A DNA stretch of 64,000 nucleotides from a bacterium (GTDB lineage Bacteria; Patescibacteriota; Minisyncoccia; Moranbacterales; UBA2206). Shown here in pieces: positions 3,746 through 64,000 of this stretch. Position 1 is the first letter of the stretch. Every line of letters begins with the position of its first letter. Where the stretch lies: contig JAJYGF010000004.1 in assembly GCA_021785125.1 (NCBI GenBank), positions 67,124 through 131,123 of the forward strand. The letters are read 5' to 3'. The notes beneath the pieces were generated by a model. That model worked only from the letters and a program-made list of their open reading frames with translations, was not told the DNA's origin and made no database searches. The translations under genes and the position numbers were made by a program.

Positions 3746-4900
3746 ATGCAGACATCCAAAAAAATTTTTCTCACCTCTTCGATCACATTAGGCGTGGTAC
3801 TCATGTTTTGGATCATTTACGCATTGTCCTTCCAAAAATCTAACCCCGCACCGACCCAGCAGCAAGCGCAATCATCCCTGTCCGGCGGCCAAGCTCCGAA
3901 CGCGGCCTCCCAAACAGCGAAAAATTCCGGCATCGTGGCCATATCCGACGGAGCCGTCCTGTCTCCAACCATCGGATCGGACGGCAGCTCCATCGAATAT
4001 TATTCCAAAACCGGACAAGTCTATCAGATTGATTTTGACGGCAGCAACAAAAAGACCGTCTCTGACAAAAGTCTGGCCGGACTGACCGATGTGCTTTGGT
4101 CGCCCGACAAGACGCAAGTGATCGAAAAATATTCCACCTCCAACCGTCCTTCCCGCTTTTATTTTTATGATTATGCCAGTTCGACCGGACAATCCTTGGG
4201 AAGCGACACTCTGGACGTCGCATGGGCCGGAAACAACAAAATATATTACGAATACCTCGATCCAAAAACACAGGCGGCCACGTTAAATATCGCCAATCCG
4301 GACGGGACGAACTGGACCAAGATCACAGACGCCCCTTTCAAGAGCTTGTCGATCGCTCCGATTCCGAAAACCGGACTGATCTCTTTTTGGAACAGTCCGG
4401 ACGCATTCACTTCGACAGAAATGGTTTCCACGCCGGTCATATCTGACGAAAAAACTGATTTGGAAAAAGGATATTTTGGAGCGGACTACTTATGGAGTCC
4501 TGACGGCAACAATCTCTTGATCAGCAATCTAGATCAAAAAGGCGGATCGAATCTGCAATTGGGAATCACCGACAGCACGGGAGGCAATTACAAAAATTTG
4601 AAAACGGCGACTTTTGTTTCAAAATGCGCTTGGTCCAGAGATGAAAAAACGATTTATTGCGCCGTCCCAAGTTCCTTTCCAAGCGGAGCTGTCCTGCCGA
4701 ACGATTATGACAGCGACAAGTTCAGCACTGCGGACAGTTTCTGGAAAATCGACATCTCTACCGGGGAAAAAACACCCTTGATCGATCCCGCCAAAATAAA
4801 TACCTCTTTCGATGCCACCAATTTATTTCTCAATTCGGACGAAAGCATGCTGTTTTTCGTGAATCGGAAGGATGGGAAACTCTATCGTATCGACCTCTAG
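3746..4900 (+). CDS. Membrane-anchored PD40/TolB-like beta-propeller protein
   Basis: N-terminal TM followed by repeated WSPDG/WSPDK/WSRDEK motifs (YLWSPDGNNLLIS, VLWSPDKTQVI) typical of PD40 repeats. Confidence 0.55.
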   Translation: MQTSKKIFLTSSITLGVVLMFWIIYALSFQKSNPAPTQQQAQSSLSGGQAPNAASQTAKNSGIVAISDGAVLSPTIGSDGSSIEYYSKTGQVYQIDFDGSNKKTVSDKSLAGLTDVLWSPDKTQVIEKYSTSNRPSRFYFYDYASSTGQSLGSDTLDVAWAGNNKIYYEYLDPKTQAATLNIANPDGTNWTKITDAPFKSLSIAPIPKTGLISFWNSPDAFTSTEMVSTPVISDEKTDLEKGYFGADYLWSPDGNNLLISNLDQKGGSNLQLGITDSTGGNYKNLKTATFVSKCAWSRDEKTIYCAVPSSFPSGAVLPNDYDSDKFSTADSFWKIDISTGEKTPLIDPAKINTSFDATNLFLNSDESMLFFVNRKDGKLYRIDL

Positions 4901-57390: not shown

Positions 57391-57444
57391 TTTTTCATAA
57401 GTTGCTAGATTATATGCGAGGCGGAAAAAGCCTCGCTTTATATT

Positions 57445-57531
57445 GGAAGGGTCGCCTAGTGGTTTATGGCACCGCCTTGGAAAGGCGGCATACTATAAAA
57501 GGTATCGGGAGTTCGAATCTCCCCCCTTCCG
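57445..57531 (+). tRNA. tRNA-Ser (anticodon GGA), class II with a long variable arm
   Basis: Acceptor GGAAGGG/CCCTTCC, D-arm GCC-tagtggtttat-GGC, anticodon stem CCGCC/GGCGG with loop ttGGAaa, an 18 nt variable arm, T-arm GGGAG-ttcgaat-CTCCC, discriminator G. CCA is not encoded. Confidence 0.8.
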
Positions 57532-57643
57532 CAGTGACAACTTTTTATCGCACAGACTCAAACAGCCGAGACTAAGCGGCGACTCGAGCGCTTATAAAAA
57601 GCTAAAAAATACGAAGCAATTTCTGCTCCGTATTTTTTGTTTT

Positions 57644-58975
57644 CTACTCTTCAATCAAGGTTATCTTTTTGTCTTTGTAATTCAACCGGCTGCGCAGATT
57701 GGCCAGTAGTTCTCGCTTGTCGGACACACTACCCTCTTTGAATAGGTATTTGGCATATTGGCGGATATCGACTTCATTTTCTTCCACTAAATTCTGGCCA
57801 CTTTTTCCATTGACCACTTTTTGCAGTTTGTTGAATCGACGAATTTCATCTTCCAGTTTCTGCCGCATTCCCAGCTCGTTGATGTCCACTTTGTCTATGA
57901 TTTTTAGCAGTTCTTCAATCAATTCTTCCTCCCGGATATATTTGTTTTTGCAGTGCCGATCCCTAGCTCGCGAGCAGGAGTAATAGATATACCTGGCGTG
58001 CGTACCATCTTTGAGCTGTTTGTATTTTTCCTCAGCTGATATGCCCGATCCGCAGTAGCCGCAGGTGAATAATTTAGTAAAGGCGAATTCTTTATTTTCT
58101 CTGACAATTTTATCTCTTTTGAGCCACGCTTGGGCTTTTTCAAATACCTCTTGGGTAATTATCGGATCATGTTTTCCGGTATACCAGTTACCGCTTTTGG
58201 CTGGATATTCAAAGACTCCATAATAGAAAGGATTATCCAGCGTCCGATACACTCCAGCCAGTGTCAGCGGCTTATTGCCTCTCGTGTAAAAATTTAATTC
58301 GAATCTGAGCCAGTGATATATCTTTCTGCCTGAATAATGTTCGTAAGCTACTTTTTCAAATATCTTTTTGATAATCGGCGCTCTTTGCGGATCGAGAAGA
58401 AGTTGGCATTTTTTATCCATGTGTTTCTGGTTGAGATATCCCAGCGGCGCGACCGTCGGCCAGAGTCCCATCTCGCATCGGGCGCGAAGACCTCTTTTCA
58501 CATTGATGCCTCGGTTGTCATTTTCCAGCTTGGCTTGCGAGCCAAGAATCATCAGCAGGAACTTTTCATTTGGAGAATTGGTGAATCGTTGCCCGTAAGT
58601 TCGGATTTCTTGCAGTAATTTAGCATCCATAAGGTCGACTATTTTTCCTAGGTCACCGGCATTTCTAGAAATACGATCCGGCGCCCAGGTCATAATACCA
58701 TTAAATTTGCCGGATTTGATTTCTTCCACAATTTCATTAAAGACTGGTCTTTGCCCAGTCTCCTTGGCGCTGTGCGATTCTCGTTTTATTTCCACGATTT
58801 CCAGATTTTCTCGCTCCGCCAGTTGCATCATTTCTTTTATTTGGGAGTCGATGGAAAGCACCTGTCTTTCCTCCGACTCGGTCGATTTTCGGGCATAAAG
58901 ACAGTAACGTACTGGAATCGCTACTGGCTGGGCTTGGGCTGGTAGCCCTAATTGGCTGGCATTTGGATAGCTCAT
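57644..58975 (-). CDS. Large serine recombinase (resolvase/integrase family)
   Basis: Catalytic N-domain VRYCLYARKSTESEERQVLSIDSQ...MTWAPDRISRNAGDL, recombinase domain GLWPTVAPLGY, and a Zn-ribbon CGYCGSGIS...YYSCSRARDRHC. Lies 112 bp from tRNA-Ser. Confidence 0.85.
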   Translation of the reverse strand: MSYPNASQLGLPAQAQPVAIPVRYCLYARKSTESEERQVLSIDSQIKEMMQLAERENLEIVEIKRESHSAKETGQRPVFNEIVEEIKSGKFNGIMTWAPDRISRNAGDLGKIVDLMDAKLLQEIRTYGQRFTNSPNEKFLLMILGSQAKLENDNRGINVKRGLRARCEMGLWPTVAPLGYLNQKHMDKKCQLLLDPQRAPIIKKIFEKVAYEHYSGRKIYHWLRFELNFYTRGNKPLTLAGVYRTLDNPFYYGVFEYPAKSGNWYTGKHDPIITQEVFEKAQAWLKRDKIVRENKEFAFTKLFTCGYCGSGISAEEKYKQLKDGTHARYIYYSCSRARDRHCKNKYIREEELIEELLKIIDKVDINELGMRQKLEDEIRRFNKLQKVVNGKSGQNLVEENEVDIRQYAKYLFKEGSVSDKRELLANLRSRLNYKDKKITLIEE

Positions 58976-59200
58976 AGGTTTATTGGTTATTTCTTACTAC
59001 CCAATGAATGACGCAATCCTTTGAAGGAGTCAAGAGCGTCCCGAGTAGGTAAGCTGTTGACAACTAATAGCTTAAAAGGCTCTTGAAAACTTGCTGGAAA
59101 TTGCTTGAATTGTGGAATTACAAAAAAGTCCATTTTAGCATTTACCAAAGCCACAATTTAAGCTAAACTTAAGCCGAGGTAATTCAAATTAATAAAAATT

Positions 59201-59674
59201 ATGAATAATTCAAAAAGCGTTTTTGACGAAAAATTTACGAATCTCTATAGCCTTACTAAAACATTGAAGTTTGAATTGAAACCAGTGGGGAAAACATTGG
59301 ATAATATGCGCATGCATTTGAAATATGATAAGAATTTACAAACATTTTTAGTTGATCAGGAAATCAAAGACGCGTATCAAATTCTTAAGCCCGTATTTGA
59401 CAAACTACATGAAGAATTTATCACGAAAAGTTTGGAGAGTGAAAAAAATAAAAGCCTTTTTAATTTTGAAAATTATTTAGAGTTGCGGAAAAAATTGGCA
59501 TTAATAAATAAAAAAAAGGAAGAAGTAGAATATAAAAAAGTAGAAAGTGATTTTACAAAAGAAGAAATAAAATTGCGGAAAATGTTTGATGATGTTTGGA
59601 AAAATGAAGGGGAAAATTTTAAAAACAAAGTCGGTGTAAATGAAAAAGGGAAAGCAATCTTACTACTTTTGTAG
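59201..59674 (+). pseudogene. cas12a: Cas12a (Cpf1) N-terminal fragment: WED-I plus the start of REC1 only, 157 aa, truncated
   Basis: VFDEKFTNLYSLTKTLKFELKPVGKTLDN...DQEIKDAYQILKPVFDKLHEEFI aligns with Fn/AsCas12a residues ~4-80 (F.[21 protein letters not shown]...KDYKKAKQIIDKYHQFF). The ORF stops at 157 aa and its last codons run into a CRISPR repeat. Confidence 0.7.
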
Positions 59675-59799
59675 ATTAAAATCGTCCATCCATTGGAATT
59701 TTGCCGAATACCGATATAAGATTTCTACTTTTGTAGATCAGGCTCAAAGACAATCCGCTTTGCGCCGAATACCGATATAAGATTTCTACTTTTCAATAA
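59641..59799 (+). CRISPR. Type V-A (Cas12a-type) CRISPR mini-array: 3 repeats (the first and last degenerate) and 2 spacers
   Basis: Central repeat GCCGAATACCGATATAAGATTTCTACTTTTGTAGAT (36 nt, 59703-59738) ends with the Cas12a 5' handle UCUAC-UUUU-GUAGAU. Repeat 1 (59641-59676) keeps only ...CTACTTTTGTAGAT. Repeat 3 (59764-59799) matches for 30 nt then diverges. Spacers TAAAATCGTCCATCCATTGGAATTTT and CAGGCTCAAAGACAATCCGCTTTGC. Confidence 0.7.
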
Positions 59800-59832
59800 A
59801 CTTAGAACAAACAAAATCAACAAAAAACTGAC

Positions 59833-60768
59833 GTGAGAACATTTACCGAATTATTCAATTTAATATTGACCGCGGATAAGGAGACAAGCCGCAAAGCGGC
59901 GCGGGAGGTGAGAAAAGCGGTGTATGGATCCGATGATCGAGGCGGGTATGAGATCATAAAATCCATCATCAATGATGCTCCCGCGAAATACGAAAAGATA
60001 ATGGAAGATTGGAGGCGGGAGAATTTTGTCATGGCTATATCCGTAATGTATTTTCTGCACGACAAAGAAAATAAGCCGGACTTCTTGTTTCCTTGGTTAT
60101 TTAAACTTCTTCAGCATGAAAGAGGCAACATCCGTCATGCCGCGGTGCGCATGATTGGCAACGAGCTCGGACCGCTAACCGTGCACCTGCGCGTACCTGA
60201 ATGGAGATCAATCCATCCGGGATATTCAACCGAAAAAGCGGACCGCATCCTCTTTGAGTTGTATGTCAATCTGAACAAAATGATGTCCGACTTATGGAAG
60301 CCTTCATATAAAAGGTATAGATACATTTCTTCATTGCCCGCCAGTCCTTACAAGTCGGTGCAAATGCTGCTGGCGGAGTTGGAAGAAGATTGTGGCAAAA
60401 AATACATTGATGATTTGATAAAACGGATAGATGACATGAACAGCCTGGATAATACTTTAATTTCCGTGGTTAAGACAGAATCCAAACAACAAATTCTGGA
60501 AAGACGAAAAGAAATTGAAGCCGAGATTTCAGAAATGCTCAAAGAAACCGAAAGTGATTTTGAATTGGAGGACGTTAAAGAAGCGATATATAACGAAGAA
60601 GAGCAGGATGATTTTATGCATTTAGTCACTATGTTTGATCGCGGCGGCGATGCTTCGGAATTGAGTAATGTTTTGGAACTGGTCACGGATGCCTGGAATT
60701 ATTTCCCGCATAAAATTCTCGGCGGCATTTCTCCCGCCGAACAGGCGCTAAAATATGGAAAAAAATGA
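59833..60768 (+). CDS. Hypothetical alpha-helical protein immediately downstream of the mini-array
   Basis: 311 aa, no recognised motif, acidic C-terminal half. Followed by the terminator-like caagaggtcgtcttttttt. Confidence 0.4.
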   Translation: MRTFTELFNLILTADKETSRKAAREVRKAVYGSDDRGGYEIIKSIINDAPAKYEKIMEDWRRENFVMAISVMYFLHDKENKPDFLFPWLFKLLQHERGNIRHAAVRMIGNELGPLTVHLRVPEWRSIHPGYSTEKADRILFELYVNLNKMMSDLWKPSYKRYRYISSLPASPYKSVQMLLAELEEDCGKKYIDDLIKRIDDMNSLDNTLISVVKTESKQQILERRKEIEAEISEMLKETESDFELEDVKEAIYNEEEQDDFMHLVTMFDRGGDASELSNVLELVTDAWNYFPHKILGGISPAEQALKYGKK

Positions 60769-61339
60769 AGTAATTATTATTTCATGCTATACCAAAAATA
60801 AGGCAAGAGGTCGTCTTTTTTTAATTCTCAAATAATTATGGTGAGGCTCGGGGATATTCATATACTTTGCTTTTCCCGCAATCTTCTTTGTTTTAAAACA
60901 CAAGAAATGAAACAGGTTTGCTGGAGTTTTGCTTTTACAGGTTTTGGCATTTATTGGCATTTCGCTGCGGCTGCTATTGACTAGAAAACTATCATGGAAC
61001 AGTTCGTTTACATTGTACTACGCGTTTTATTCTTTATTCACTGGGTTTTTGGGAAAATGGGACACAGAAATGGAATATCCCATACTAGTGTTCCATTTGT
61101 TCCGTTTGCTCTATTTAGACTCCGACTCAAACACCTAAAATCCAGTTCTGTTCAGATGTTTCAAAAAACCTTATAATACTTGTATCTGGGGTACTTATCT
61201 CGAGATGCCCGCAGAGACCATTTTTATCGTGAGCGCATAGCCGAATCGACTGTAACAAACTTAAAAATGGCACGTATAACATTATTATTGGCATTGGCAG
61301 ATTATTGCTTTTATTTTTGTGTGCTGATATAATTACACG

Positions 61340-61882
61340 GTGTCAAGCGTTTTAATAAAATTAAGTAAAAAAATGAATTTAGAAGGAAAAATCGGAGGGT
61401 ATAACAAAAAAACCTTGGTTAGCGCAGGGTTGATCGTGGTTATCGCTCTCGGAATGTTCTACATCGGAGCCGAGTATGAGAAAGGCAAGTTGTCCAAATT
61501 GAACAGTACTTGCAGTCTGGGGAAAGCTAAAAAGAGCAGCAAAAAACATTCGGTTGTAACGCCGAGCGCCAATGCCATTTCCGGAACTATTACGGCCAAG
61601 GATGACAAAACCGTAACCTTGAAAATGGCCGACGGGACAACCAAAATTGTGGATTATACCGCGGCTACCACTGTGGGCAAAAATGCCAAGAGCACGATTG
61701 CCGATCTGGTTATCGGAGAAGAAGTTACAGTCAGCGGCCAGCCGAATGCTGACGGCACTTTCGCGGCTGACAATATACAGAAAACCAAAACTGCAGCTGT
61801 GGGTACGAGCGTAAATTCAACTCCTGCCGCAACTCCGGCTTCCAACCAAACTTCTTCGACCGGACAGGCGTCTTCCAATTAA
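61340..61882 (+). CDS. Membrane-anchored secreted protein, Thr/Ala-rich (hypothetical)
   Basis: N-terminal TM (LVSAGLIVVIALGMFYIGA), an OB/BOF-like middle region (TITAKDDKTVTLKMADGTTKIVDY) and a T/S/A-rich tail. Confidence 0.4.
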   Translation: MSSVLIKLSKKMNLEGKIGGYNKKTLVSAGLIVVIALGMFYIGAEYEKGKLSKLNSTCSLGKAKKSSKKHSVVTPSANAISGTITAKDDKTVTLKMADGTTKIVDYTAATTVGKNAKSTIADLVIGEEVTVSGQPNADGTFAADNIQKTKTAAVGTSVNSTPAATPASNQTSSTGQASSN

Positions 61883-61942
61883 ATATTAGACTGAAAGCAA
61901 GCTGTTTTTTGGATAGACATCAAGATCCACTGGTAGTGGGTC

Positions 61943-63571
61943 TTGTGCTTTTCCGAAAAAGGTCGGACAAGAACTATGGAAAACTTGAGAAATATCATTC
62001 GACGGAACAAGGCAAGCCTTATTGTTTTTGCGGCGATTTTTTCTGTCGGAATATTTCTTAGGGTTTATAATTTCAACGGACTTTTGGTTTTTGGGTTCGA
62101 CCAATCTCGCGATGCCCAACTGGCAAAGAACATCATCGAGAATCACCAATCGCTCCCGCTGCTTGGCCCGCATGCGATGGGTACCCGTTTCAAACTCGGG
62201 CCGGCTTATTATTATTTTCAATATCTGTCGGCCGTTATCTTCGGCGACCGGCCGCAGAGCCTGGCTTATCCCGATCTTTTATTTTCCATAGCGACTATCC
62301 CGCTTCTTTTCTTCTTCCTTAGGAAGTATTTCAATAAGGATGTGTCGTTGGCCCTGGCCGGGCTGTGGAGCATTTCTTTTTTTGCCGTCAAGTTCTCGCG
62401 CTTTGCCTGGAATCCCAACTCTTTGCCATTTTTCACGCTGCTTTTGCTGTACGCCCTTCTGGAAATCGCGGACAGCGAAAAGGGGAGACATAAAAATTGG
62501 TGGCTGGCCGTGGCTGGAATAGCTTTGGGCGTGGGAGTTCAACTGCATACTTTGTCTCTTGTGATTCTGCCTGTTGTGGCCGTCCTTTTTATCTGGTCAA
62601 AAGTCGGCTTGAAGGAAAGGCGGGCCAAATATATAGCGATCATTTTTGCGGCCGCTCTTCTGTTGAATGTTCCGCAGGTTGTTTCCGAGATGAAAACCGG
62701 AGGAAGAAATACCCGAGATTTCATTGTTGGAGTAAAAGAAGAGCTTAGAAACCACACCGATTTGGCAACCAATCTTTTTGCAGACGTTTCTTGCCATGTG
62801 CAGGCCAACTCACTGATAGTTTCCTCTTATGGCGACAATGTCGGATGTTCTTTCGGGGATATTTTTTATAAACAAGAAGGCGGATTTTATTATGCCAGCC
62901 TGCTGGGGAAAATTGCCTTCGCTTTCGCCTTTTCCGTTTTCGGATATCTGGCCCTTTTCAGCTTTTGGAAAAAGCCGCCCGCCGGAAAAAACGATGATTT
63001 CATACGGTTGATTTCCATGTTTGTGGCGGTATCTTTTCTGGCTTTCTTCATGGTTGCTGTCGGTATGACCGACCGGTATTATCTGGTGTTTGCTTTTGTG
63101 CCGATCGTGCTTCTCGGGCTGATATATGAGCGCTTCCTGAAGAAAATCCGTTACGGGAAAAGTATTTTTATAATTATGCTTTTGGTCCTGGCGGTCCAAA
63201 ACGCGGTCACTTTGAAAAAATATTTTACCCCTTTCGAAAGGATCGGGCTTATGGAGGATTCGATGTTGTCGGAAAACAGAGCGCTCGCAAATTTCATATC
63301 GGTCAATGTCGGGACGGACAGAAAGGCCTATATCAGCCAGAAGCAAGGCGATTGGAGGATACTTAATTATTTCTTGACGGGGAAAGTATATCTGATTCAT
63401 ATCGGGAAAAATAGCGGATTTTTGGATCAGTCGGTGCCATATTTCCTGATCACCGACGAAGCCCATAAAAAAACCATCATCCAAGCGGAACAGGATCTTT
63501 TCGGATATGCGCCAGCCAAGCAGGCGTCATTCGGCACTTTCATCATCACTGAATTTTTATCTCAAAAATAG
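61943..63571 (+). CDS. GT39/ArnT-like (PMT family) membrane glycosyltransferase
   Basis: About 12 TM segments; the N-terminal loop FGFDQSRDAQLAK is the DE/DxD-like motif of the ArnT/PMT family. Confidence 0.65.
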   Translation: MCFSEKGRTRTMENLRNIIRRNKASLIVFAAIFSVGIFLRVYNFNGLLVFGFDQSRDAQLAKNIIENHQSLPLLGPHAMGTRFKLGPAYYYFQYLSAVIFGDRPQSLAYPDLLFSIATIPLLFFFLRKYFNKDVSLALAGLWSISFFAVKFSRFAWNPNSLPFFTLLLLYALLEIADSEKGRHKNWWLAVAGIALGVGVQLHTLSLVILPVVAVLFIWSKVGLKERRAKYIAIIFAAALLLNVPQVVSEMKTGGRNTRDFIVGVKEELRNHTDLATNLFADVSCHVQANSLIVSSYGDNVGCSFGDIFYKQEGGFYYASLLGKIAFAFAFSVFGYLALFSFWKKPPAGKNDDFIRLISMFVAVSFLAFFMVAVGMTDRYYLVFAFVPIVLLGLIYERFLKKIRYGKSIFIIMLLVLAVQNAVTLKKYFTPFERIGLMEDSMLSENRALANFISVNVGTDRKAYISQKQGDWRILNYFLTGKVYLIHIGKNSGFLDQSVPYFLITDEAHKKTIIQAEQDLFGYAPAKQASFGTFIITEFLSQK

Positions 63572-63641
63572 CGGTTTTAATTTTTGTCGCTTTTTGCCTT
63601 ATTTTCCTCGGTATTATATAGTAGATACACTACAAATCACT

Positions 63642-64000
63642 ATGAAAGCGGATTTAGAGGAGATAAAATCAAGACTTAATATTGTCGATGTTTTGGGCGA
63701 ATACATCCGTTTGGAAAAGGCGGGCGCCAATTGGCGCGCCAACTGTCCATTCCACAATGAAAAAACGCCTTCTTTTATGGTCAGCGAGGACAAGCAGATC
63801 TGGCATTGCTTCGGCTGCCAGAAAGGAGGCGATATCTTCAGTTTCGTCATGGAAATCGAAGGTTTGGAATTTCGCGACGCTTTGAAGATTCTGGCAGAAA
63901 AGGCTGGCGTACAGCTCAAGAAAGTCGATCCTAAATATATCGAACATAAAAATAGGACATTGGAAATTTTGGAATTGGCCACAAAATTCTATCAGGCCTA
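63642..64000 (+). CDS. dnaG: DNA primase DnaG (3' partial, runs off the window end)
   Basis: N-terminal zinc-binding domain CPFHNEKTPSFMVSEDKQIWHCFGCQKGGDIFSFVMEIEGLEFRDAL. No stop in the window, so it is not in the ORF track. Confidence 0.8.
   Translation, partial: MKADLEEIKSRLNIVDVLGEYIRLEKAGANWRANCPFHNEKTPSFMVSEDKQIWHCFGCQKGGDIFSFVMEIEGLEFRDALKILAEKAGVQLKKVDPKYIEHKNRTLEILELATKFYQA

What the first reader, a model, noticed from the sequence alone, without database searches (positions are those of the whole stretch)
57445..60770. tRNA-Ser-adjacent island carrying a large serine recombinase and the CRISPR remnant
A class II tRNA-Ser(GGA) is followed 112 bp later by an inward-facing 443-aa large serine recombinase. 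Next come the Cas12a fragment and mini-array, then a hypothetical gene, then ~570 bp of gene-free AT-rich DNA. This organisation is typical of an integrative element, and the degraded defence locus would be its cargo. I could not find a direct repeat of the tRNA 3' end downstream, so the right boundary and the integration mechanism are undefined. Serine integrases often use non-tRNA att sites.
Basis: partly seen in the sequence, partly recalled or inferred. Interest (0 to 1): 0.65.

Follow-up and report, generated by a model that had tools for sequence, protein, structure and literature searches.

The report
Serine-integrase islet beside tRNA-Ser
A 3.7-kb mobile DNA cassette sits just after a serine tRNA gene in an uncultured Moranbacteria-like bacterium; it carries a phage-type serine integrase and the wreck of a CRISPR-Cas12a locus, and an otherwise identical sister genome lacks it, so it is real but of a familiar kind.

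Summary
The pieces are tRNA-Ser(GGA) at 57445-57532, a 443-aa large serine recombinase (LSR) at 57644-58975 (-), a Cas12a N-terminal stub fused to a 2-spacer mini-array at 59201-59799, and a 311-aa unknown gene.

A sister MAG (GCA_027428215.1) has flanks 100% identical over 2.7 kb and 2.6 kb but lacks exactly 3,679 bp. The element is 57551-61229, bounded by a 9-bp direct repeat TTTTTATCG inside a 22-23-bp imperfect repeat. The right end lies in the "AT-rich gap". DUF5666 and PMT are host genes.

The LSR has over 100 database relatives at 78-88% identity in very different CPR lineages, although host pyruvate kinase finds nothing closer than 77%. Some relatives sit beside phage terminase and ParB-methylase genes. 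In IMG/VR, a downstream tRNA is always convergent, and it is tRNA-Ser for the closest relatives. One sibling was caught in both attP and attL states.

A 92-94% identical copy elsewhere (L195) still has cas2, leader and a 3-spacer array before the same 311-aa gene. The cargo is therefore an internally deleted type V-A locus.

This is a new member of a known kind. The exact crossover and present-day activity are not shown.

The parts
57445..57532 (+). Host tRNA-Ser(GGA), class II. Its 3' end forms the left (B) arm of the attachment site. It is unchanged in the occupied and empty alleles.
   Evidence: ARAGORN; Rfam RF00005, 55.7 bits; identical sequence in the empty allele L183.
57528..57550 (+). 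attL quasi-repeat TCCGCAGTGACAAC-TTTTTATCG. The 9-bp core TTTTTATCG is 57542-57550.
   Evidence: The empty and occupied alleles are identical up to 57550. The motif GAC[ACT]A[ACT]?T(4-7)ATCG occurs only at att sites in 2.55 Mb of fetched DNA.
57551..57643 (-). Element-side (P') arm plus the bidirectional terminator hairpin of the LSR gene (57604-57638).
   Evidence: Conserved with the sequence downstream of sibling LSR genes in L168, L169, L173, L176 and L199; terminator scan.
57644..58975 (-). Large serine recombinase (integrase), 443 aa, intact, convergent with the tRNA.
   Evidence: PF00239 + PF07508 + PF13408; PHROG 95 'integrase' E 2e-63. Aligns over residues 27-413 with SPbeta SprA/YokA (9dxd), and S31 lines up with the serine of SprA's equivalent Y-x-R-x-S motif (S22). 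Y27, R29, S31, D100, R101 and R104 are invariant in 49 family members (that output is numbered one lower because the start codon was omitted).
58976..59075 (-). LSR upstream/promoter region. This is the last stretch homologous to the phage-borne sibling loci.
   Evidence: blastn 58995-59052 against L168 5944-6001, 81%; homology stops where terL ends in L168.
59201..59674 (+). Truncated cas12a: codons 1 to ~152, then 4-5 codons and a stop read from repeat sequence. GC 29%.
   Evidence: PADLOC Cas12a models, profile positions 5-151; TIGR04330. Comparison with the full-length code-25 Cas12a of L194 places the break after '...GKAI(L)'.
59660..59799 (+). Type V-A mini-array. Partial repeat 59660-59676, spacer 1 59677-59702, repeat 59703-59738, spacer 2 59739-59763, degenerate terminal repeat 59764-59799.
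   Evidence: The same repeat and trailer follow cas2 and the leader in L195. The hairpin is kept in the first two repeats only. Spacer 2 is replaced in variant L004.
59833..60768 (+). 311-aa cargo gene of unknown function: an all-alpha ARM/HEAT-like solenoid.
   Evidence: 533 homologs, none with a Pfam domain on the conserved core. AF2 pLDDT 86.5. Foldseek gives only generic armadillo/importin matches, best E 6e-3. A 91% identical homolog lies directly after the array in L195.
60769..61220 (+). Non-coding right end of the element. It includes the P arm CTGGGGTACTTATCTCGAGATGCCCGCAGAGACCA (61186-61220), which imitates the tRNA 3' end.
   Evidence: 60803-61212 is 93.7% identical to L195 3860-4270. 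The P arm aligns with the attP of L168.
61221..61229 (+). attR copy of the 9-bp core TTTTTATCG. Host DNA resumes here or directly after.
   Evidence: The empty and occupied alleles are identical from 61221 rightwards. Contigs L189 and L190 start exactly here.

Best explanation
Window 57551-61229 is a 3,679-bp site-specific integrative islet. Its own large serine recombinase is the likely agent of its movement. That enzyme belongs to a phage-type integrase family that is abundant in CPR bacteria and their viruses.

The proposed mechanism is as follows. A circular form of the element carries attP (...GGGGTACTTATCTCGAGATGCCCGCAGAGACCA-TTTTTATCG-CACAGACTCAAACAGCC...). It recombines with the chromosomal attB (...CCCCCCTTCCGCAGTGACAAC-TTTTTATCG-TGAGCGCATAGCC...), which starts in the last bases of tRNA-Ser(GGA). 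The tRNA stays intact. The integrase gene ends up next to attL, pointing at the tRNA.

The cargo is a type V-A CRISPR-Cas locus that later suffered an internal deletion. The deletion runs from cas12a codon ~152 to the 3' part of a repeat. It removed the rest of cas12a and whatever lay between it and the array (in L195 that includes cas2 and the leader). What remains is two spacers, the terminal repeat and the neighbouring ARM/HEAT-like gene.

Shown: the precise presence/absence polymorphism, the joint within TTTTTATCG, the LSR architecture and conserved catalytic motif, the family-wide tRNA adjacency, and the derivation of the cargo from a fuller locus.

Inferred: that the LSR catalysed the event, the exact crossover dinucleotide, the direction of the event (integration or excision), and whether the element still moves.
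For: 1. Empty site. L183/L188 have 100% identical flanks (2,724 nt and 2,628 nt) and lack exactly 3,679 bp. The joint falls in a shared TTTTTATCG.
2. Coexisting alleles. In samples ERZ27233565 and SRR13170411 the contigs break exactly at the att sites. Occupied contigs from NCBI, ENA and Logan assemblies are 100% identical over 4 kb.
3. Intact LSR with all three domains and the invariant Y-x-R-x-S...D-R-x-x-R motif.
4. Horizontal mobility of the LSR. The top 120 hits are 78-88% identical and come from MAGs named Niyogibacteria, Levybacteria and Yanofskybacteria. Host PK finds nothing closer than 77% in the GTDB-representative and JGI scans.
5. Siblings lie next to ParB-methylase, a small ORF and terL, or next to UvrD, with the same ~110-nt downstream arm.
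6. One protein seen in two states. P0009 has its arm joined to a tRNA 3' end in L169/L170 and to a tRNA-mimicking P arm in L168. The window's attR aligns with that attP.
7. attL junctions occur on tRNA-Ser GGA, GCT and TGA.
8. In 61 IMG/VR loci, 18 have a downstream tRNA and the first one is always convergent. For the closest relatives with a downstream tRNA (74-77% identity) it is tRNA-Ser.
9. A different P-side variant sits at the same host attB in L191.
10. L195 carries cas2, leader, a 3-spacer array, the 311-aa gene homolog, the same non-coding end and the P arm.
Against: - No circular or attP junction of this particular element was found. An exact P'-arm search of IMG/VR gave nothing.
- The two flanking copies form a 22-23-bp imperfect direct repeat, so the empty allele could come from short-homology deletion rather than LSR catalysis.
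- The L195 junction (GATGCCCGC|GAACACAATTCGTCC) lacks the GACCATTTTTATCG block. That points to a crossover nearer the tRNA end (CCGC) than the one inferred from the window/L183 pair.
- tRNA-Ser flanks in related species lack the GACAAyTTTTTATCG motif. The attB of this species may therefore itself be a scar of an older element.
- No recombination directionality factor was identified.
- All sequences are metagenome assemblies.
Confidence: 0.8

Rival explanations
1. Dead remnant. The block is what is left of a once larger prophage or island and no longer moves. The empty allele arose by spontaneous deletion between the two 22-23-bp imperfect direct repeats, with the joint in the 9-bp identity, and the integrase played no part.
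For: The element has no packaging, replication or transfer genes. Homology to the phage-borne siblings stops at the LSR promoter. The cargo is visibly decayed. The joint lies in the longest run of perfect identity, as homology-driven deletion predicts. No attP form was found.
Against: The LSR ORF is full length with all catalytic residues. The boundaries coincide exactly with the att architecture seen in siblings, which do show both attP and attL states. A second element variant occupies the same attB, which deletion alone cannot produce. Nine base pairs is very short for homologous deletion to recur in several samples.
Confidence: 0.15
2. The whole 6.06-kb slot between tRNA-Ser and dnaG (57533-63593), including DUF5666 and PMT, is one island.
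For: Three related species (L009, L013, L089) have tRNA-Ser directly followed by dnaG. Others carry unrelated genes in the slot.
Against: The sister MAG keeps DUF5666 and PMT while lacking only 57551-61229. attR lies upstream of DUF5666. The slot is therefore a hotspot filled in at least two separate events.
Confidence: 0.03
3. Assembly or binning artefact. The recombinase-CRISPR block belongs to another organism or phage and was joined to this chromosome by mis-assembly.
For: All data are short-read metagenome assemblies. GC drops to 29% in the Cas12a stretch.
Against: The same junctions appear in independent NCBI, ENA and Logan assemblies from several samples, on contigs of up to 110 kb, with 100% identity. 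The junction sequences have the expected hybrid att structure.
Confidence: 0.02

Closest known systems
Phage-type large serine integrases (SPbeta SprA/YokA, Listeria A118/LI integrase, phiC31, Bxb1)
   Same: Three-domain architecture: catalytic domain with a Ser nucleophile, recombinase domain, and zinc ribbon. The gene sits at the edge of the element next to an att site. attP and attB share only a short core. Integration makes no long direct repeats. The best solved-structure match is SprA, and the best PHROG is 'integrase'.
   Different: At 443 aa it is at the short end of the family. From my own knowledge, the classic examples insert within protein-coding genes or intergenic DNA. This clade instead targets the 3' flank of tRNA genes (Ser for close relatives; Gln, Asp, Glu, Arg, Trp or Asn further out) with a P arm that imitates the tRNA end. 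No RDF is known. The sequence is distant from these enzymes (E 2e-10 to SprA).
SCC/SCCmec cassettes moved by Ccr serine recombinases
   Same: A small cargo cassette without its own transfer or replication genes. It inserts at the 3' end of a conserved housekeeping gene. It is bounded by imperfect direct repeats of about 20 bp that contain the crossover. Different cassette variants use the same site. The best NCBIfam hit is CcrB (E 4e-38).
   Different: The CcrB score (131 bits) is far below the family cut-off (900), so this LSR is not a Ccr. There is one recombinase gene, not a ccrAB pair. The target is a tRNA flank, not rlmH. The host is a CPR bacterium.
tRNA-targeting genomic islands and prophages with tyrosine integrases (P4-like and similar)
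   Same: The element sits at a tRNA 3' end, the integrase is adjacent and convergent, the tRNA stays functional, and the site is a hotspot with varied cargo.
   Different: The catalyst is a serine recombinase, not a tyrosine one. The element does not duplicate a long tRNA 3' segment. Only a 9-bp core within a 22-23-bp imperfect repeat is shared.
Remnants of lost type V-A loci, and CRISPR-Cas loci carried on mobile elements
   Same: Shmakov et al. (10.1101/2023.03.03.530964) describe a Francisella hispaniensis locus in which only a solitary repeat and the terminal degenerate repeat remain after loss of the V-A locus. Here too the terminal repeat and trailer survive a deletion that ends in a repeat. 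From my own knowledge, CRISPR-Cas carried on integrative islands, phages and transposons is well documented.
   Different: One deletion end lies inside cas12a, not in an upstream solitary repeat. Two spacers survive. The carrier is a 3.7-kb LSR islet in a CPR genome.
Phage or MGE mini-arrays, solitary repeat units and RNA anti-CRISPRs (Racr, crlRNA)
   Same: A cas-less V-A mini-array on a mobile element, with a partial first repeat. It resembles the IMG/VR phage mini-array L203 and the solitary repeat in L204, which carry the same 23-nt 3' part of the repeat. Known roles are inter-MGE conflict or Cas12a inhibition (PMC10651486; 10.1101/2024.10.29.618823, abstract).
   Different: Here the array demonstrably derives from a fuller locus by deletion. 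No target, no partner Cas12a and no expression were found.

Membership tests
Large serine recombinase (serine integrase) | N-terminal resolvase-type catalytic domain with the nucleophilic serine and the conserved Arg/Asp residues | tested here: met
   PF00239 residues 26-170, E 2e-19. Y27-x-R29-x-S31 aligns with the equivalent motif of SprA (S22). S31, R29, D100, R101 and R104 are invariant in 49 relatives (numbering offset by 1).
Large serine recombinase (serine integrase) | C-terminal recombinase domain plus zinc-ribbon domain, with a total length well above small resolvases (~180-200 aa) | tested here: met
   PF07508 (196-286) and PF13408 (299-358); 443 aa. The alignment with SprA runs to residue 413.
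Large serine recombinase (serine integrase) | Recombination between short attP and attB sites at a central dinucleotide, giving hybrid attL/attR without long duplications | tested here: inconclusive
   Hybrid attL/attR and an attB were recovered, and the joint maps to the 9-bp TTTTTATCG. The dinucleotide and catalysis by this enzyme are not shown. L195 suggests another possible crossover position.
Large serine recombinase (serine integrase) | Directionality controlled by a recombination directionality factor | not testable with these tools
   No candidate was identified. The only other intact gene (311 aa) has no informative match.
Integrative mobile element / genomic islet | Precise presence/absence between otherwise identical genomes | tested here: met
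   L183/L188 against the window: 3,679 bp difference, flanks 100% identical.
Integrative mobile element / genomic islet | Excised circular form (attP junction) of this element | tested here: not met
   The P' arm search in IMG/VR found nothing. Only a sibling's attP (L168) was seen. Raw reads could not be searched.
Integrative mobile element / genomic islet | The same integration module occurs with different cargo, or related elements use the same site | tested here: met
   Sibling LSR-plus-arm modules carry terL/ParB-methylase or UvrD cargo. Variant L191 sits at the same attB.
Prophage | Virion, packaging or lysis genes inside the element | tested here: not met
   tblastx of 57400-64000 against the phage-borne sibling loci finds only the LSR, its flanks and the att site. 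PHROGs hits only the integrase.
Functional type V-A CRISPR-Cas system | Full-length Cas12a with a RuvC nuclease domain | tested here: not met
   Only profile positions ~5-151 of ~1150-1360 are present. No other ORF of Cas12a size is in the window.
Functional type V-A CRISPR-Cas system | Adaptation genes (cas1, cas2, cas4) and a leader | tested here: not met
   All are absent from the window element. cas2 and the leader are present in the related copy L195.
Functional type V-A CRISPR-Cas system | Array of ~36-nt repeats ending in ...UCUACU(N3-5)GUAGAU | tested here: met
   One full repeat, one 3' partial repeat and one degenerate terminal repeat; spacers of 25-26 nt.
Small resolvase / DNA invertase with an adjacent res or inversion site | About 180-200 aa with a C-terminal HTH, acting on nearby inverted or direct sites in cis | tested here: not met
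   443 aa with RD and ZD domains. The PHROG 'DNA invertase' match covers only the catalytic domain. The polymorphism is an insertion/deletion, not an inversion.

The most novel reading that the evidence does not exclude
The islet may be a live, minimal 'guide-RNA cassette' rather than debris. On this reading the retained cas12a promoter and 5' stub drive transcription of a two-spacer mini-array on an LSR-mobilised element. The resulting crRNA-like RNAs would be used in trans, either to arm a Cas12a encoded elsewhere against competing elements or to titrate or repress it as an RNA anti-CRISPR. The ARM/HEAT-like gene would be a co-selected partner or directionality factor. Three observations leave this open. 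Spacer 2 is replaced in one otherwise identical copy (L004). CPR phage contigs carry cas-less V-A mini-arrays with a partial first repeat. The first two repeats keep the Cas12a hairpin.
Probability: 0.1. Interest if true: 0.7.

Novelty: new member of a known kind. Interest (0 to 1): 0.42.

Why it matters
- It provides a concrete attB/attL/attR set, an inferred attP, and a large, highly conserved family of compact (~440 aa) serine integrases that read tRNA 3' flanks. That is useful raw material for integrase-based genome engineering.
- It is one of the few boundary-resolved mobile elements in CPR/Patescibacteria, whose mobilome is poorly described. My three literature searches on serine recombinases in CPR or on tRNA-Ser att sites found nothing on this family.
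- It shows that a type V-A CRISPR-Cas locus in these bacteria travels as cargo of a site-specific islet and decays there. This helps explain the patchy distribution of Cas12a in CPR lineages.
- None of this overturns current understanding.

Tried and rejected
- **tRNA 3' duplication.** I looked for a direct repeat of the tRNA 3' end downstream, as a tyrosine-integrase island would have. Only chance 8-12-mers turned up.
- **Whole-slot island.** My first reading was that the whole 6.06-kb tRNA-Ser to dnaG slot is the island, based on the 'empty' species L009, L013 and L089. The strain-level empty site L183 keeps DUF5666 and PMT, so I dropped this.
- **Crossover at CCGC.** I first inferred a crossover at the tRNA end, from L168 against L169. 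The window/L183 pair contradicts this by mapping the joint to TTTTTATCG, while L195 partly supports it. I leave it unresolved.
- **Prophage remnants.** terL, ParB-methylase and similar genes were sought inside the element; none were found.
- **Protospacers.** I searched for targets of the three window-lineage spacers in IMG/VR (exact), and of those plus the L195 and L203 spacers in all fetched DNA. There were no hits for the window, L004 or L195 spacers.
- **This element's P' arm in IMG/VR.** None.
- **A recurrent family of short Cas12a N-terminal proteins.** All nine hits are 88-186 aa. I rejected this idea because L194 is an intact cas12a split by 18 in-frame TGA codons (genetic code 25), so at least some of the short hits are gene-calling artefacts.
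- **Fuzzy motif scan.** The first version was too loose and uninformative. I replaced it with a strict pattern.
- **Other ncRNA.** Rfam found nothing beyond the tRNA.
- **Closer relatives.** No relative closer than 77% (PK) appeared in the GTDB-representative or JGI scans. The decisive contigs came from exact-protein look-ups instead.

Full report
**1. Observation**

ARAGORN finds a single tRNA in the window, an 88-nt class II tRNA-Ser(GGA) at 57445-57532 (+). Rfam places it at 57445-57531. A 443-aa ORF lies 111 nt downstream at 57644-58975 on the minus strand. It is convergent with the tRNA and carries Resolvase, Recombinase and Zn_ribbon_recom domains.

A 157-aa ORF at 59201-59674 matches Cas12a models only over their first ~150 positions. 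It reads directly into the last 17 nt of a V-A repeat. The rest of the array is:
- spacer 1, 59677-59702;
- a full 36-nt repeat, 59703-59738;
- spacer 2, 59739-59763;
- a degenerate terminal repeat, 59764-59799.

A 311-aa ORF (59833-60768) and a gene-poor 36-38% GC stretch follow. The Cas12a/array segment is 29% GC against 44% for the window. The one wording issue is that the recombinase points towards the tRNA, out of the element, so 'inward-facing' is misleading.

**2. Organism and slot**

Exact-protein look-ups place the window on contig DAICBU010000015.1 of GCA_027428275.1. The closest pyruvate-kinase relatives are 77% identical. They come from MAGs annotated as Candidatus Moranbacteria/Moraniibacteriota, in the CPR/Patescibacteria.

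In three such species (L009, L013, L089), tRNA-Ser(GGA) is followed directly by dnaG, rpoD and tRNA-Asn. Other relatives carry unrelated genes in that slot:
- a RidA-like and an IlvA-like gene plus an AAA ATPase in L008;
- a C39-like gene plus an AAA ATPase in L012;
- yet other genes in L088, L090 and L092.

The site downstream of tRNA-Ser is therefore a variable hotspot. The conserved dnaG promoter resumes right after the PMT gene of the window.

**3. The decisive comparison**

Look-ups with the host pyruvate kinase and DUF5666 proteins returned contig DAICBV010000022.1 of GCA_027428215.1 (L183/L188). Its gene order is PK - tRNA-Ser - DUF5666 - PMT - DnaG. Base by base, its flanks are 100% identical to the window over 2,724 nt on the left and 2,628 nt on the right. 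The window has exactly 3,679 extra bases.

The two alleles are identical up to 57550 on the left and from 61221 on the right. The overlap is a 9-bp direct repeat, TTTTTATCG, at 57542-57550 and 61221-61229. It sits inside a longer imperfect repeat: TCCGCAGTGACAAC-TTTTTATCG on the left and CCCGCAGAGACCA-TTTTTATCG on the right.

The element is therefore 57551-61229 (equivalently 57542-61220). DUF5666 and PMT are host genes outside it.

Several contigs from the same samples stop or start exactly at these points: L185 on the left, L189 and L190 on the right. This is what a short-read assembler does when occupied and empty alleles coexist. Occupied contigs from NCBI, ENA and Logan assemblies are 100% identical over 4 kb. 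The exception is L004, whose only difference is a replaced spacer 2.

**4. The recombinase and its family**

The protein is a complete large serine recombinase.
- The three domains are present.
- The best PHROG is 'integrase' (E 2e-63).
- The nearest solved structure is the SPbeta integrase SprA/YokA, aligned over residues 27-413. S31 lies opposite the serine of SprA's equivalent motif.
- The Y-x-R-x-S and D-R-x-x-R residues are invariant in 49 relatives.

The family is very large. All 8,000 scored candidates passed E 1e-20. The top 120 are 78-88% identical, although they come from MAGs named Niyogibacteria, Levybacteria and Yanofskybacteria. The host's own pyruvate kinase finds nothing closer than 77%. 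This pattern points to horizontal spread.

Sibling genes lie directly downstream of a ParB-N/N6_N4 methylase, a small ORF and a Terminase_6N gene (P0009, P0118). Another lies next to a UvrD helicase (P0002). P0076 also lies beside a UvrD helicase, but L171 lacks the conserved downstream arm. Relatives also occur on IMG/VR viral contigs.

Homology between the window and these loci covers only 57533 to ~59075. That span is the arm, the LSR gene and about 95 bp of its upstream region. It ends where terL would end. No phage gene remnants are inside the element.

**5. Attachment-site anatomy**

About 110 nt downstream of the LSR stop codon is conserved among the window, L168, L169/L170, L173, L176 and L199-L202. 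This stretch contains a terminator hairpin, a block with repeated GACyCGAG, and then ...CGATAAAAArTTGTC (read on the LSR strand). A strict pattern for this last block occurs only at att sites in 2.55 Mb of fetched DNA.

In the window it abuts tRNA-Ser(GGA). In L199-L202 it abuts tRNA-Ser(GCT), in L176 tRNA-Ser(TGA), and in L169/L170 a tRNA 3' end.

The same protein (P0009) is also found in L168, where the arm is joined to GGGTACTTAACCCGAGATCACCGCCA. That sequence imitates a tRNA T-arm and acceptor end, so L168 looks like the attP state. The window's right end (61166-61255) aligns with it in the correct orientation.

From attL, attR and attB, the attP of the window element is inferred as ...GGGGTACTTATCTCGAGATGCCCGCAGAGACCA-TTTTTATCG-CACAGACTCAAACAGCC...

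In a survey of 61 complete relatives on IMG/VR contigs, 18 have a tRNA downstream. The first tRNA is convergent in every case. The types are Ser (8), Gln (5) and one each of Asp, Glu, Arg, Trp. For the closest relatives that have a downstream tRNA (74-77% identity) it is tRNA-Ser.

A different variant of the element's right end is joined to the same host flank in L191. At least two element variants have therefore used this attB.

**6. What remains uncertain about the joint**

The window/L183 pair maps the exchange to TTTTTATCG. This fits an LSR crossover at a central dinucleotide within a shared core. It also fits a deletion between short direct repeats.

The related copy L195 breaks homology earlier (GATGCCCGC|GAACAC...) and lacks the GACCATTTTTATCG block. 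tRNA-Ser flanks in related species do not contain the motif either. The true crossover could therefore sit nearer the tRNA end, and the attB of this species could be a scar of an earlier element. I could not resolve this with sequence alone.

**7. The cargo**

L195 comes from the same sample as L004 and is 92-94% identical in DNA. Its order is:
- cas2;
- a ~165-nt leader;
- four repeats with three different spacers;
- the same degenerate terminal repeat and trailer;
- a 91% identical copy of the 311-aa gene;
- 1.58 kb of extra DNA with two small ORFs;
- the same 410-bp non-coding end and P arm, followed by a different host flank.

The window's Cas12a stub and mini-array are therefore an internal-deletion derivative of a fuller V-A locus carried by this element family. 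One deletion end lies after cas12a codon ~152 ('...GKAI(L)'). The other lies in the 3' part of a repeat, with little microhomology.

The stub's closest relatives looked like a set of short proteins. At least one of them (L194) is really an intact cas12a from a 24.5% GC organism in which TGA is read through. It has 18 in-frame TGAs, one of them at a conserved Gly position. The 'fragment family' is thus at least partly a gene-calling artefact.

No protospacers were found for the spacers. No close full-length Cas12a turned up, and none is in the window.

The 311-aa protein belongs to a 533-member family with no annotated domain on its conserved core. Its confident AF2 model (pLDDT 86.5) is an ARM/HEAT-like alpha solenoid with only generic structural neighbours.

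**8. Comparison with what is known**

The element works like other LSR-driven integrative elements. In layout it is closest to SCC-type cassettes: small cargo, no transfer genes, insertion at the 3' end of a conserved gene, imperfect ~20-bp direct repeats, and several variants at one site. The CcrB match is far below the family cut-off, so it is not a Ccr.

It shares its target logic with tRNA-directed tyrosine-integrase islands but uses serine chemistry.

The decayed V-A locus recalls the Francisella hispaniensis remnant described by Shmakov et al. (10.1101/2023.03.03.530964).

cas-less V-A mini-arrays and solitary repeats on phages are known as weapons or anti-CRISPR RNAs (PMC10651486; 10.1101/2024.10.29.618823). 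I found two such phage contigs carrying the same 23-nt 3' part of the repeat (L203, L204). A functional role for the mini-array cannot be excluded, but nothing here demonstrates one.

**9. Verdict**

It is a new member of a known kind: an LSR integrative islet.

Its added value is a resolved att set, a large tRNA-targeting integrase family in CPR bacteria and their viruses, and evidence that V-A CRISPR-Cas loci ride on such islets.

Interest is moderate (0.42). The most novel reading still open is an active guide-RNA or anti-CRISPR cassette, which I put at about 10%.

Noticed in passing
Beyond the window's right end, same contig: L005 17697-19292 (would be about window 67.5-69.1 kb): A second LSR (520 aa, minus strand, 33% identical to LSR443) overlaps the 3' end of tRNA-Asn(GTT) by 40 nt. 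L013 and L089 also have an LSR convergent with tRNA-Asn after rpoD. LSR520 lacks the N-terminal ~35 residues that carry the catalytic serine region, and a sulfatase-like C-terminal fragment lies on the other strand at its 5' end. It may be a decayed tRNA-Asn-targeting sibling. It is present in both the occupied and empty alleles.
   Followed up: partly
L013 11581-11900 (GW2011_GWD2_38_11): A second, split partial tRNA-Ser 3' half lies 15-230 bp downstream of this species' tRNA-Ser(GGA). Its variable arm resembles that of the window's tRNA-Ser. It looks like the scar of an older integration at the same tRNA.
   Followed up: no
window 59739-59763 versus L004 1599-1627: One population variant (ERZ27233565 k141_54914) is identical over ~4 kb, but the trailer-proximal spacer is a different 29-nt sequence instead of the 25-nt one. 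The element has no leader or cas1/cas2. The likeliest cause is differential loss from a 3-spacer ancestor or repeat-mediated exchange with another array.
   Followed up: partly
L203 (IMGVR_UViG_3300006459_000180) 3771-3950 and 4462-4488; L204 3109-3131: A viral contig carries a cas-less V-A mini-array of four repeats with a partial first repeat. Its second spacer matches 27/27 a site ~600 bp away on the same contig, preceded by TTCA rather than a TTTV PAM. Another viral contig carries a solitary V-A repeat. Both share the 3' part of the window's repeat.
   Followed up: partly
L194 6001-10200 (Ga0466728_064916): A cas12a gene called as many small ORFs is one continuous ~1,300-codon frame interrupted by 18 TGA codons, one of them at a conserved Gly position. 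The contig is 24.5% GC. This indicates a genetic code 25 organism and explains the short 'Cas12a fragments' in the protein database.
   Followed up: yes
window 61340-63571: The DUF5666 protein and the PMT_2 glycosyltransferase lie between attR and dnaG. They are absent from this slot in L009, L013 and L089. They probably represent an older, now fixed insertion at the same hotspot. No boundaries were sought.
   Followed up: no
window 57551-57603 and the equivalent arms in L168, L173, L176, L199: The element-side arm between the core and the LSR terminator is conserved for ~55-70 nt. It contains a repeated GACyCGAG / GCATGACC-like block, which is much more than a minimal LSR half-site needs. It may be an accessory or regulatory site, or a small RNA.
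   Followed up: no
L179 7240-7420 (IMGVR_UViG_3300000970_000154): An attP-like site (GGGTACTTAACCCGAGTGGCCCGCAC-TGGATACCGGTTATCGG-TAGACCCTGAG) lies 2.7 kb from the nearest LSR gene on a viral contig that carries two LSR copies.
   Followed up: no
L195 1-600: In the fuller CRISPR-bearing copy, cas2 is preceded not by cas1 but by a P-loop ATPase fragment on the opposite strand, and the contig ends there. That locus may itself be disrupted, perhaps by an insertion sequence.
   Followed up: no
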